A stretch of 63,864 nt of DNA, counting the filler, from Kipferlia bialata (Eukaryota): assembly GCA_003568945.1 (NCBI GenBank). It is 4 parts of 4 records of this genome, joined end to end, with 100 filler letters (N's around TTAATTAATTAA, not from the genome) between each part and the next. Parts side by side here need not be neighbours in the genome. Positions count along the whole stretch, not along the records: positions 47,389 to 59,977 come from BDIP01000291.1; 3 more parts are not named here. The stretch is one strand, 5' to 3'. A program made the position numbers and the translations under genes. How positions within the stretch are numbered: the first letter of the stretch is position 1; every line of letters starts with the position of its first letter. The notes under the pieces were generated by a model. The model ran no database searches and was not told where the DNA came from. It saw nothing but the letters and a program-made list of their open reading frames with translations. This document shows positions 48,089 through 51,625 of this stretch, in pieces.

Positions 48089-48786
48089 ATGTCTGCGTTC
48101 CGCAACTCGAGGGCCCTGGATCGAGACCGGAGCCGGTACGGGGACAGGTCTGAGGTGCGTGGAGAGCGTGGAGACGACAGGGACGACCGGAGTAGGGGCG
48201 GACGTGACAGAGACAGAGACAGAGATAGGGGATATGGGAGGGAGAGGGAGAGGGGGGGTCGCCGTGACCGGGATTACGACAGAGAGAGAAATAGAGAGAG
48301 AGACTATGACAGAGGCTATGACAGGGATAGCGACAGAGGGTATGGCCGTCGTGGTGACAGGGACAGGGACAGGGATGAGGGCAGAGAGAGATACAGTGAC
48401 AGAAGGAGGGACTCATACTCTCGCGACAGAGACTCCAGGGACTCTGGGAGGGACAGAGAGGAGCGGAGAGAGCGCAGCCCTCGTCGGGAGAGAGAGAGAC
48501 GTTCTGAGAGAAGGCCCGAAGAGAGACCGGTGGAGAGAGAGAGGGAGAGGGAGAGTGCCCCAGTAGAGAGGGAGGCAAGGACTGAGTCCAGAAAGCCAGA
48601 GGAGACAGATACGTATGAGGACACCCAGGAGGGGAGGGACAAGAAGCTGGAGGCTCTGAGGAAGACTGCGTCAAAGCAAGGTATCATGCTCTCGGTCTCA
48701 CTCTATCTCTCTCTATTCCACCCCCCCCCCCTATCTCCCCCTTACACCCACTCTAGGTCTCATCTCCGGTGCCGACTACCATGATA

Positions 48787-48831
<45 letters not shown>

Positions 48832-49403
48832 TCCCTCTCACTCTAACTCCAGGCCTCATCTCCGGTGCCGACTACCATGCTGCCCATGAGGCCAAGAGAC
48901 TGGCTGAGCTGGAGAGGCTGGAGAAGATGAGCAGTCAACTGACTGGGCAGGTATAAGTGTATTAATATGTATACATAGGTATATGATTACATATATATAG
49001 AGAGAGAGACTGGCTGAGCTGGAGAGGCTGAAGAAGATGAGTAGCCAACTCACAGGGCAGGTATGTATGTATATATATTGTATACATAGGTATGTGAATA
49101 CATATATAGAGAGAGAGAGAGACTGGCAGAGCTGGAGAGACTCGAGAAGATGAGTAGCCAGCTCACAGGGCAGGTGTGTATGTAAATGTGGATATATACT
49201 TATGTGTGTGAATATGCGTGCATCACTCCCGGTATATTTCATAAGTATCACACTATTATTACATACATACCTCACCATCCAGGGCGCCACTGCCACCTAC
49301 CGCAACCTGTCTGGTGACATCATCGATGCCCCGGAGAACAAGAAGGAGGAGAGGCCAGAGCCACAGGCCAAGAAGCTCACGAGGTATATAAATGCATGTA
49401 TAC

Positions 49404-49458
<55 letters not shown>

Positions 49459-51625
49459 CCAGAGCCACAGGCCAAGAAGCTCACGAGGTACACCCTCCCT
49501 TCATCTCTCTCAGCCCTTCCCCAGTCTCATACTGGTGGTGCAACGCTCACTCCCCCGTACTCAGTTACTCTCTCTGTTTATCGTCCCTCATTCAGTGCTA
49601 GTATGATGCAATATATGTTGATATATATACACTATGCCCTCACCCCAGTGACACCTATGAGGGTGCCCTCGAGAATGAGAAGTTTGAGCTCGAGAGGACC
49701 AAGTTCGAGAAGAGAGTCAAGGTGCGTGCCTATATATGTGTATGTTCGCCCGATATGTGTATGTTAGCCCGATATTTTATGTATATACCACTTTATGCAC
49801 ATAAGTGATTGTGTCAGTATGCATCTCTGACCCCTCAGGAGATCCAGGATGGCCGTGACCGCATCACAACCATAGACAGGTCCAAGGACAAGGAGGTGTG
49901 TATGTTTGTGTGAATATATATTTATAACTGTATATGGTCTGTTGTCATAGCTCTCTCTCTATACACATGTATGTTCTTTTACCTTCCCGACCCCAGGTTG
50001 ACCCTATGGCCTCTATACACCTGTACATATATGTGTATTATTATATATATATGTATCCATCATACCCCAGGTTGACCCCATGGCCCTTATCAGGCTGGAG
50101 AGGGAGGAGAGAGAGGCAGAGGACAAGATGCTCAGGAGGCAGAGGAGGTTAGTGGGGCAGAGACACCAAGTGGTATAGTGGCGTATATAGATGTGAATAC
50201 TGCAGTGAGGCAACTATCTGGCCTAAAGACATAGCTGTGTATATCAATCTGACCCATAGGCGTGAGAGAAAGGCCAGGAGCAACATCAACCTGCTAGATG
50301 GGACTGGTGGGGACGAGGCACCCAGGGCACACAGGAGGAAGCACAGGAGGTGGGAATAGATAGTGTCTGTATAGTAGTCTCTCTGTATATAGTAGTCATG
50401 TATATATACATAGGCACACAGGAGGAAGCACAGAAGGTGAGTGCAGAGATCTAGTCTCTATATAGTAGTCTCTATATAGTGGTCTCATTTTATATATACA
50501 CCGCAGGAAGCACAGGATGTGAGGGTGTGAATGTAGGGTGGGGTTAGTCAGTCTCCATCAAGCTATATGTAACCTATATGCAACCTATATGTATATGCAT
50601 CTATGTATATAGAGTCCCCCTCACCCCCAGACACAGAGACATGGGAGAGGGAGTTGGGATCTTCTTTTCTCTCTCTCTTAGCAATATTTGTGTATATGCA
50701 TATATACACATATATATATATATATACCCTCACCCCCAGACACAGAGACAAGGGAGATGGAGAGAGAGAGCCCAGGGAGAAGAGGAGACCAGACGACAAG
50801 AGGCCCATGGAAGAGTGAGTTGCTCCGATTCTTTTCACCCATTTGTGTAATTTTTCTCCTGTTACTCTCTCTCTTAATGTCACACACCCTCTCACCCCAG
50901 CAATGAGCCTGTCTATGTCACCAAGTATGAGCCCATGTCGCCCCATGCACCAGAGTCAGTCAGGTGCTCTCTCTCTCTCTCTCTCTATCTCTATCAGTGT
51001 TCCTGTATGTACGGGCGTCTGTAAGTAGAAGCCGCTGACCCATCCTTATATCCTATCCCTATATGTACGTATCCAAGCACCCCCACGCGCATGTATGGGG
51101 GTCAATCTCTCTTTCTCTCTCTATATATATATATGTATATATCCATGTATTTATCTATAAATATAGATGCGTGTGTTCCTATTTATTACTCCCAGGCATA
51201 TGTATGGGGGTCAGTCTCTCTCTCTCCCTCTCTTAACACACACATATATATCTATGTATACCCACCCCCAGGCGCATGTACGGGGGTCAGTGGGAGGCCA
51301 GGCGGTGGGACGTCAAGCCGGGCTGGAGGTGGGACGGGGTCGACAGGGGGAACGGGTTCGAGGCAAGGAAGGTGGGGTTACGACACACTGTGTATGCATA
51401 CATATATGTACATTCTTATATACTTCTGGTGTGTTTCAGTATCAGAATATACATACTGAATGGGTTCGAGGCAAGGAAGGTGGTAGGGCTTAAACACTGT
51501 AGATATATACTTCATGTCTCTTCTACTCTACTCTCTGTGACACACTGAACCCCTGATACCTTCGTAACATCCAGCTTGAGGCCTGTGCCGAGGCAGACGA
51601 TGGCCACATGATGGGCTATGAGTAG
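48089..51625 (+). CDS. BUD13: BUD13/Cwc26 pre-mRNA retention and splicing (RES) complex subunit; multi-exon
   Basis: RD/RS-rich N-terminal exon, then GATATYRNLSG (cf. ETVYRDxSG), DPMA and the C-terminal signature WDVKPGWRWDGVDRGNGFEAR. The last exon is LEACAEADDGHMMGYE*. Confidence 0.88.

What the first reader, a model, noticed from the sequence alone, without database searches (positions are those of the whole stretch)
48750..51490. Same synonymous exon stutter in BUD13: a ~110-bp unit spanning a splice donor, present three times
The 18-codon exon end RLAELERLEKMSSQLTGQ plus GT donor occurs at 48897-48950, 49007-49060 and 49120-49173. Copy 3 differs from copy 1 by 8 synonymous and 0 non-synonymous changes. 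Copy 2 differs from copy 1 by 4 synonymous and 1 non-synonymous change. The intron portions of the units are homologous but freely diverged. More stubs lie at ~48757, ~49455, ~49997, ~50415, ~50631, ~51088/51196 and ~51460. An alternative reading is that copy 2 is an included phase-0 exon using the TAG at 48998-49000. Finding the pattern in an unrelated gene on another contig suggests a genome-wide process.
Basis: partly seen in the sequence, partly recalled or inferred. Interest (0 to 1): 0.82.

Follow-up and report, generated by a model that had tools for sequence, protein, structure and literature searches.

The report
Protist introns hoard exon-edge allele relics
In BUD13 and three other genes of this probably single-celled eukaryote, repeats of about 100 bases put spare copies of exon edges inside introns; the one assembled BUD13 transcript skips them, yet they differ from the real exons mostly at silent positions, likely because they were copied from other alleles, which would make these introns a record of past genetic exchange.

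Summary
The three copies and the counts (8/0 and 4/1 synonymous/non-synonymous) are exact. Read-derived DNA contigs carry the copies at flanking depth. A spliced contig joins copy 1 straight to exon 3, so copies 2 and 3 are intronic. The window holds 46 such stubs in 27 of 43 introns of four genes, and none in 18 introns of two other genes. The layout is a known kind: the amphioxus 'mirage' repeats of exon-intron boundaries (PMC3087553). The unusual part is that unexpressed stubs bear the marks of coding selection: 84 silent against 34 replacement differences, pN/pS 0.15, P 3e-10 even if the exon drifts at silent sites. They also follow codon bias, while their intron halves barely align. Best explanation (0.62): the stubs took their exon letters from diverged alleles on the homologous chromosome, at birth or by later gene conversion, and now decay. 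This is inferred; no second allele was seen. New variant of a known kind; interest 0.55.

The parts
48089..51625 (+). BUD13 gene, 11 exons: 48089-48680, 48853-48950, 49283-49383, 49649-49721, 49839-49895, 50071-50147, 50260-50349, 50740-50814, 50901-50963, 51272-51371, 51575-51625; all 10 introns GT-AG
   Evidence: Open model; Pfam Bud13 on exon 10; 7 joints seen in the X2 contigs; positions in X2 record 8 agree with the model at all 13 places checked
48895..48950 (+). Copy 1: the used end of exon 2; its donor GT at 48951 is the one used
   Evidence: X2 contig 48856-48947 with 0 other letters; joint 48947->49280 GT..AG, cut +3
49005..49060 (+). Copy 2: intronic donor-side stub; 5' part like copy 1, 3' part mostly like copy 3, one private E>K change
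   Evidence: skipped by the X2 contig
49118..49173 (+). Copy 3: intronic donor-side stub, 8 silent and 0 replacement differences from the exon
   Evidence: skipped by the X2 contig
48757..48783 (+). Acceptor-side stub of exon 2 (1 silent change)
49453..49487 (+). Donor-side stub of exon 3 behind a (GA)n run (1 silent change); its intron half does not align with the real one
   Evidence: joint 49381->49647
49997..50011 (+). Acceptor-side stub of exon 6 (1 silent change)
   Evidence: joint 49893->50069 skips it
50413..50518 (+). Two donor-side stubs of exon 7 (50413-50436; 50498-50518, with AGG>CGC, both Arg)
50631..50653 (+). Acceptor-side stub of exon 8 (0 silent, 2 replacement changes)
51087..51215 (+). 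Two acceptor-side stubs of exon 10 (51087-51104, AG lost; 51196-51215)
51458..51479 (+). Donor-side stub of exon 10 (1 silent change)
   Evidence: joint 51369->51573 skips it
23733..29573 (+). ATG22-like transporter gene (5' part off the contig): 21 stubs in 10 of 14 introns, 48 silent and 16 replacement codon differences; splicing modelled from sequence only
   Evidence: Pfam ATG22 E 1.4e-9
57030..59918 (-). 12-exon gene (maspardin-like hydrolase, name recalled): 7 stubs in 5 of 11 introns, 8 silent and 2 replacement codon differences
60264..62500 (+). Partial gene (phosphodiesterase-like, name recalled): 7 stubs in 5 of 8 introns, 4 silent and 7 replacement codon differences (no silent excess here)

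Best explanation
These are tandem duplications of about 100 bases across exon-intron boundaries ('mirage'-type repeats) whose extra copies lie inside introns and, in BUD13, are skipped by the assembled transcript, and whose exon letters were likely copied from diverged alleles on the homologous chromosome. Steps: (1, shown) a unit of 15-56 exon bases, the splice site and 41-127 intron bases is repeated, so each stub is half an exon. (2, shown for BUD13) the outermost splice sites are used, so the stubs leave with the intron. (3, inferred) a break or stall at the TA/GA/CT microsatellites of the intron is repaired by invading the homologue through the only well-conserved homology, the short exon; synthesis runs across the splice site and is finished by end-joining, and later unequal exchange or gene conversion from allelic exons can refresh the exon half. 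(4, inferred) as the template was a working allele, it differs only in ways a coding sequence tolerates (about 0.2 per silent site); about 0.03 random changes per site have been added since.
For: Differences fall 22/14/82 on codon positions 1/2/3. 84 silent and 34 replacement differences, pS 0.215, pN 0.032; P 2.9e-10 against a null in which the exon also drifts at silent sites (expected silent share 0.43). The result stands for unique events (67/34, P 1.2e-6), for one stub per exon edge (52/23, P 3.4e-6), without the ATG22-like gene (34/15, P 5.4e-5) and for BUD13 alone (21/6, P 7e-5). Stub against stub is also silent-biased (19 vs 12 codons, P 6e-5 to 3e-4). Stubs follow codon bias: GAG/AAG/CAG to A-ending 0 of 56, AGG to AGA 5 of 24. 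Silent GC>AT 28 against AT>GC 20, no significant skew. Silent divergence is uniform across the 46 stubs (P 0.51) and uncorrelated with replacement divergence (rho -0.08, n 42), unlike an age clock, though power is low. Stubs are decaying now: one nonsense codon; GT kept in 27 of 29 and AG in 15 of 17, a loss close to pN. Intron halves are far more diverged than exon halves: 0.50 vs 0.34 control identity over 8 nt after GT; only 6 of 29 and 2 of 17 pairs exceed the control's 95th percentile. Copy 2 is a mosaic of copies 1 and 3. Stub junctions sit next to dinucleotide repeats in 20 of 46 cases against 22.5% background (P 0.009), and 7 of 8 sense-strand (GA)n runs abut a donor-side stub. Analogy, read by eye in supplement 4 of PMC3087553: the two amphioxus BflGb6 haplotype exons differ at 5 silent sites, and 4 of the 5 haplotype-2 variants occur in haplotype-1 mirage copies. 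Aborted SDSA finished by end-joining gives tandem duplications in C. elegans (PMC8654963, passages) and is described in Drosophila (PMC8951532, passages). Fornicates are reported to lack Ku/NHEJ and Rad51A and to keep Dmc1 (PMC8516963, section 8); this applies only if the organism is one, which rests on the best uL16 match 7pwg (organism recalled as Giardia).
Against: No second allele is visible: one search shows no other letters in BUD13 exons in either run apart from copy 2 laid on copy 1 (contigs drop variants, so this is weak). A silent diversity near 0.2 is very high and is not measured here. The phosphodiesterase-like gene shows no silent excess (4 vs 7 codons), and 4 of 46 stubs equal their exon. 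Frames outside BUD13 come from hand-built models without RNA, and one modelled acceptor (ATG22-like exon 5) is CTG, not AG. The score threshold left out at least five decayed stubs seen (25406, 26627, 27050, 27704, 51007), which would probably raise pN. The model does not explain why two genes have no stubs or why no unit is shorter than 72 nt. The organism's repair genes were not examined.
Confidence: 0.62

Rival explanations
1. The copies arose identical on one chromosome and are kept protein-faithful by second-order selection: deletion or conversion between stub and exon is frequent enough that a replacement change in the stub harms descendants.
For: Direct repeats of 15-56 nt about 100 nt apart could recombine; copy 2 is a mosaic; the sharp fall in identity at the splice site fits exchange limited to exon halves; amphioxus mirages are length-unstable (PMC3087553, passages).
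Against: By reasoning, exchange fast enough for selection to see would homogenise the copies, yet pS is 0.2; two-way conversion within one haplotype gives pN/pS near 1, not 0.15; stubs with nonsense or radical changes persist.
Confidence: 0.12
2. Plain same-chromosome tandem duplication followed by neutral decay; the silent excess comes from drift of the exon, uneven mutation rates or detection bias.
For: Simplest origin; some units are 90-97% alike over exon and intron parts (58207-58322, 27473-27556); the phosphodiesterase-like gene fits it; in three-copy arrays the nearer stub tends to be intermediate (silent changes private to exon, far stub, near stub about 17, 12, 5; hand count).
Against: Rejected at P 3e-10 (1e-6 for unique events) with exon drift allowed. 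It would need about six times more change on the exon line than on the stub line; stub-stub differences are also silent-biased, and intron halves show no low mutation rate.
Confidence: 0.1
3. The stubs are used: a minor share of mRNAs (or of nuclei) swaps the exon end for a stub by a homology-guided, non-canonical event, or includes copy 2 as an exon, so the stubs are under real coding selection.
For: It would directly explain pN/pS 0.15, the codon bias and the free intron halves; copy 2 has an in-frame TAG; in the ATG22-like gene the exon-5 stub has an AG while the full exon has none.
Against: The X2 contig has exon letters at all five listed exon pieces that have stubs and no extra bases; the two depth bins over copies 2 and 3 hold no X2 contig (weak); stubs are half-exons, at most 0.78 of an exon, and donor-side ones lack acceptor motifs; decay is visible; no known mechanism.
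Confidence: 0.07
4. Assembly artefact: diverged haplotypes or strains were joined in tandem through microsatellites.
For: Silent-biased tandem copies next to simple repeats are what merged haplotypes look like; the assembly is fragmented at such repeats.
Against: A separately assembled contig of run X1 holds copies 1 and 2 and, by length, the start of copy 3 in one path at full depth (440-470 vs 450-491). Copies 1 and 2 share only 26 identical bases in a row, too few to merge paths at word length 31 (sequence; word length inferred from the 30-nt contig overlap).
Confidence: 0.03

Closest known systems
Amphioxus 'mirages' (Adh3, globins BflGb6/BflGb9, troponin C, PGBD5); PMC3087553 passages and supplement 4, PMC3902484 passages; the original Adh3 paper PMC117041 was not held
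   Same: [quoted passage not shown]
   Different: Here in a probably unicellular lineage, in 27 of 43 introns of four genes, with only 1-2 counted extra copies per edge. Intron halves are mostly not homogenised, whereas BflGb6 units are 81-100% alike with concerted evolution. A silent-site excess is measured here; 'synonymous' does not occur in the main text of PMC3087553.
[quoted passage not shown]
   Same: Short tandem duplication involving AG/GT signals inside a gene.
   Different: There, exonic sequence is duplicated and a new intron forms between the copies; here an existing boundary is duplicated, the old intron grows by 108 nt per stub and no new intron or exon appears in the BUD13 contig.
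Heterogeneous gene duplications (PMC6121789, abstract and outline)
   Same: Two alleles of one locus placed in tandem on one chromosome, diverged from birth.
   Different: Those are whole, expressed, adaptive gene copies; these are unexpressed half-exons with no sign of benefit.
Tandem duplications from aborted SDSA finished by end-joining (C. elegans helq-1, PMC8654963 passages; Drosophila, PMC8951532 passages)
   Same: Gives a head-to-tail copy whose added part is templated from a donor molecule.
   Different: Described with the sister chromatid as the usual template; use of a diverged homologue is my inference.
Tandem or mutually exclusive exon duplication (recalled)
   Same: Adjacent copies with purifying-selection signature.
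   Different: No stub has both splice sites, and none is in the BUD13 contig.

Membership tests
Mirage repeats | Head-to-tail repeat whose unit spans an exon-intron boundary | tested here: met
   46 anchored stubs, units 72-167 nt, median 99; control 0 of 2994
Mirage repeats | Occurs at both donor and acceptor boundaries; many but not all copies keep GT/AG | tested here: met
   29 donor-side with GT in 27; 17 acceptor-side with AG in 15
Mirage repeats | Normal splicing is not disturbed | tested here: met
   One spliced contig of run X2 matches the stub-free 11-exon BUD13 model; only BUD13 was tested, rare forms are invisible, and the run's RNA status is a guess by the tool
Mirage repeats | Whole units alike, with concerted evolution | tested here: inconclusive
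   Exon halves 92% alike; intron halves above the control's 95th percentile in 6 of 29 and 2 of 17 pairs; a few units 90-97% alike throughout
Mirage repeats | Copy-number instability between haplotypes or somatic cells | not testable with these tools
   Only contigs of one sample are held
Intron gain by proto-splice-site duplication | A new intron forms between two copies of exonic AG/GT sequence | tested here: not met
   The original outer sites are used and the stubs lie inside existing introns
Tandem / mutually exclusive exon duplication | Copy has its own acceptor and donor and enters mRNA | tested here: not met
   Longest stub is 0.78 of its exon; 0 of 29 donor-side stubs have the acceptor motif; BUD13 stubs are skipped
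Heterogeneous (allelic) duplication | The copies correspond to alleles found in the population | not testable with these tools
   No second haplotype or isolate found
Aborted-SDSA tandem duplication | Microhomology or templated insertion at the junction | tested here: inconclusive
   Junction flanks are enriched in dinucleotide repeats, 20 of 46, P 0.009, but these may have grown after the event

The most novel reading that the evidence does not exclude
The stubs are working spare exon ends: a homology-guided switch, in RNA or DNA, puts a stub in place of the exon edge in a minority of molecules, which is why half-exons without their own second splice site stay under protein-level and codon-bias selection while their intron halves drift. 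Assembled contigs would hide such minor forms.
Probability: 0.07. Interest if true: 0.92.

Novelty: new variant of a known kind. Interest (0 to 1): 0.55.

Why it matters
If the stubs are captured alleles, one assembly keeps a readable record of haplotypes that are no longer visible. That would allow an estimate of silent diversity (about 0.2) and be evidence of exchange between homologues in a lineage, probably a fornicate, where sex and repair without NHEJ or Rad51A are open questions. It also offers a testable mechanism for mirage repeats, whose origin PMC3087553 calls unclear: their silent variants should be found in the exons of other haplotypes. Choosing the outermost of several intact splice sites across 170-390-nt introns suggests exon definition or strong removal of mis-spliced RNA in a short-intron eukaryote. 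In practice such stubs will mislead gene prediction and short-read mapping.

Tried and rejected
No whole genome is held, so nothing beyond the window could be counted. No RNA could be laid on the ATG22-like gene, so splicing outside BUD13 is modelled only. No listed holder is on record as RNA; run X2 is 'RNA?' by guess, though its contig is spliced at GT..AG. The lack of X2 cover over copies 2 and 3 is not used alone; the joint across them is. The metagenome scan with an ATG22-like exon gave 3 distant loci (34-47% identity) from 9 of 64 parts scanned and no close relative; they were not studied. Pfam gave no hit on the short exons of the minus-strand and phosphodiesterase-like genes, so those names are recalled. 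Left out of the counts: the minus-strand region 42.8-47.0 kb (repeats present, no convincing model), the stub near 53879, and decayed stubs with indels or below score 10. Recursive splicing at the stubs' AG|GT ends was considered: 18 of 20 exons with donor-side stubs end in AG, against 17 of 23 others (hand count), and it would not explain silent bias. 'Far stub youngest' was not supported (far stubs show more decay, hand count about 10 vs 5, not tested). A two-parent hybrid could not be told from many alleles: only 2 silent three-state codons. The stub-rich versus stub-free gene contrast (27 of 43 vs 0 of 18) is descriptive, because the stub-rich genes were chosen; the proteasome-subunit model has a frame error and one mis-set acceptor. 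Look-ups of earlier scan notes by place, by sequence and by two word sets were empty.
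Full report
Observation. The window is four contigs joined by N spacers. The finding lies in an 11-exon gene at 48089-51625 whose exon 10 matches Pfam Bud13 at E 9.6e-11. Copy 2 matches copy 1 at codons 3, 7, 8 and 14 and copy 3 at codons 12, 13, 15 and 16, and has one private E>K change, so it is a mosaic.

Real DNA, and intronic. Two runs of one sample hold the stretch, both as contigs. 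In X1 (DNA), a 322-nt contig at depth 440 and a 277-nt contig at depth 470 cover the array; by my arithmetic from table 8 they span 48816-49137 and 49108-49384, and flanking contigs have depths 450-491. The copies are therefore in the reads at single-locus depth, although X1 may be the window's own sample. In X2 (RNA by the tool's guess), a 1590-nt contig at depth 152 is spliced at GT..AG, joins 48950 to 49283, and shows no other letters in the eight pieces listed. Its coordinates agree with the stub-free model at all 13 places checked. So the first donor and the last acceptor of each BUD13 array are used. Contigs hide rare forms.

Extent. An unbiased repeat scan found similar repeats on three of the four contigs. 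I modelled four stub-bearing genes by hand and searched each intron for matches anchored at the adjacent splice site: 46 stubs in 27 of 43 introns, and 0 hits in 2994 control pairs from different genes. Units are 72-167 nt, median 99, and intron length rises by 108 nt per stub (r 0.90). No stub covers a whole exon (maximum 0.78). Two genes on the first contig have no stub in 18 introns even at a lower threshold, so the process is patchy. The genes were picked after the repeats were seen; the region 42.8-47.0 kb, the stub near 53879 and at least five decayed stubs were not counted.

The odd part. Over 1446 aligned bases there are 118 differences, falling 22/14/82 on codon positions 1/2/3: 84 silent, 34 replacement, pS 0.215, pN 0.032. 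If a stub were born identical and then decayed while the exon drifted at silent sites, 43% of differences should be silent; 71% are (P 2.9e-10). The result holds for unique events (67/34, P 1.2e-6), one stub per edge (52/23), BUD13 alone (21/6) and without the ATG22-like gene (34/15), and for transition weights 1 to 4. Stub-versus-stub differences are 19 silent and 12 replacement codons. Stubs also respect codon bias: 0 of 56 GAG/AAG/CAG codons end in A, while 5 of 24 AGG became AGA. Silent divergence is uniform across stubs and uncorrelated with replacement divergence (low power). Yet the stubs are decaying: one nonsense codon, and 4 of 46 splice dinucleotides lost. Their intron halves are much more diverged than silent sites and mostly cannot be told from unrelated introns. 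One gene, the phosphodiesterase-like one, shows no silent excess (4 vs 7 codons), and 4 stubs are identical to their exon.

How it likely works. Both lines of descent, the exon's and the stub's, must have spent most of their separate history as coding sequence. Two half-exons cannot do that side by side, but two alleles can. I infer that breaks or stalls at intronic TA/GA/CT microsatellites (enriched at stub junctions, 20 of 46, P 0.009) are repaired from the homologue by invasion through the short conserved exon, that synthesis crosses the splice site, and that end-joining finishes the event. Later unequal exchange or conversion from allelic exons can refresh the exon half while the intron half drifts. 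Duplications that span one boundary survive because the extra half-exon falls in the intron. Aborted SDSA ending in end-joining makes tandem duplications in worms (PMC8654963, passages) and is described in flies (PMC8951532, passages). Fornicates are reported to lack Ku/NHEJ and Rad51A and keep two Dmc1 paralogues (PMC8516963, section 8), and Dmc1 stabilises mismatched joints (PMC6719624, abstract). That link is a lead only: the window's lineage rests on one best match of a uL16 protein on another contig to PDB 7pwg (363 bits vs 337 next), whose organism I recall as Giardia. Against this reading: no second allele shows in either run, no relative was found, the required diversity is high, and the patchiness and the 72-nt lower limit are unexplained. 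I cannot tell many alleles in a population from two parents of a hybrid.

Rivals. Second-order selection through deletion or conversion in cis (0.12) should homogenise the copies. Neutral decay (0.10) is rejected statistically unless exons change about six times faster than stubs. Hidden use in mRNA (0.07) explains the signature directly but has no mechanism and no RNA support. An assembly artefact (0.03) conflicts with the read-derived contigs.

What is known. Earlier notes of this scan (unchecked AI notes) pointed to amphioxus 'mirages', which I then read. PMC3087553 (passages; supplement 4) and PMC3902484 (passages) describe tandem duplications of exon-intron boundaries on either side, with most splice signals kept, no effect on splicing, length instability and an unclear origin. 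The layout here is the same. The differences are the lineage, the density, the low copy number, the unhomogenised intron halves and the measured silent excess. In supplement 4, by eye, the two BflGb6 haplotype exons differ at five silent sites and four of the haplotype-2 variants occur in haplotype-1 mirage copies, which fits allele sharing but is one case and gives no direction. Intron gain by proto-splice duplication (PMC2891723, passages) and exon duplication fail their defining tests here. Heterogeneous duplications (PMC6121789, abstract) share the born-diverged idea only. A genome paper on an intron-rich free-living fornicate (PMC5874029, passages; a recalled guess at the kind of organism, not an identification) has no occurrence of 'duplicat' or 'tandem'; a ciliate intron paper (PMC13685798, passages) has nothing comparable. 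The ten searches (listings only, apart from the papers named) showed no report of silent-biased intronic exon-edge copies, but none used the word 'mirage', the original Adh3 paper was not held, and other supplements were not seen.

Verdict. A real feature, a new variant of the mirage kind. The architecture is known; the coding signature in unexpressed half-exons is the surprise and is testable with raw RNA reads and a second haplotype. Interest 0.55.

Noticed in passing
window 25195-25576 (+): ATG22-like exon 5: the full exon at 25504 is preceded by CTG, not AG, while an upstream stub at 25404 has a TAG acceptor and lacks 3 bases. The only open AG-GT route found includes the stub as a 19-nt micro-exon and adds 13 residues. 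Could be a base error, a non-canonical acceptor or a used stub.
   Followed up: partly
window 25019-25316 (+): An acceptor-side stub and a donor-side stub of ATG22-like exon 4 overlap by 9 exon bases and together cover the whole exon; the full exon between them has a weaker AAG acceptor.
   Followed up: no
window 42800-47000 (-): Several exon-edge-like repeats (43656/43962, 44596-44949, 46377/46465, 46526-46879) in a region for which no convincing gene model was found.
   Followed up: partly
window 53879-54011 (+): Acceptor-side stub before a 123-codon exon with no Pfam match; not counted.
   Followed up: no
window 29900-37600: Long stretch without ORFs of 200 codons, made of degenerate repeats hundreds of bases apart; looks like decayed repeated DNA.
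   Followed up: no
window 14038-14670 (+): Ribosomal protein uL16/L10 in one reading frame; best solved match 7pwg chain I.
   Followed up: partly
window 16468-18792 (+) and 14880-16188 (-): A 13-exon WD40-like gene and a proteasome beta-like gene (names recalled) with 18 introns and no stubs.
   Followed up: partly
window 55402-56367 (-): 321-codon open frame with weak Kelch matches, all below cut-off.
   Followed up: no
window 49488-49545 (+): After the exon-3 stub donor lies a pyrimidine tract ending in an acceptor-like CCCCAG with faint likeness to the start of exon 4; possibly a much older stub.
   Followed up: no
window 47658-47733 (+): Hexamer tandem array (GATACT)n of about 12 copies.
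   Followed up: no
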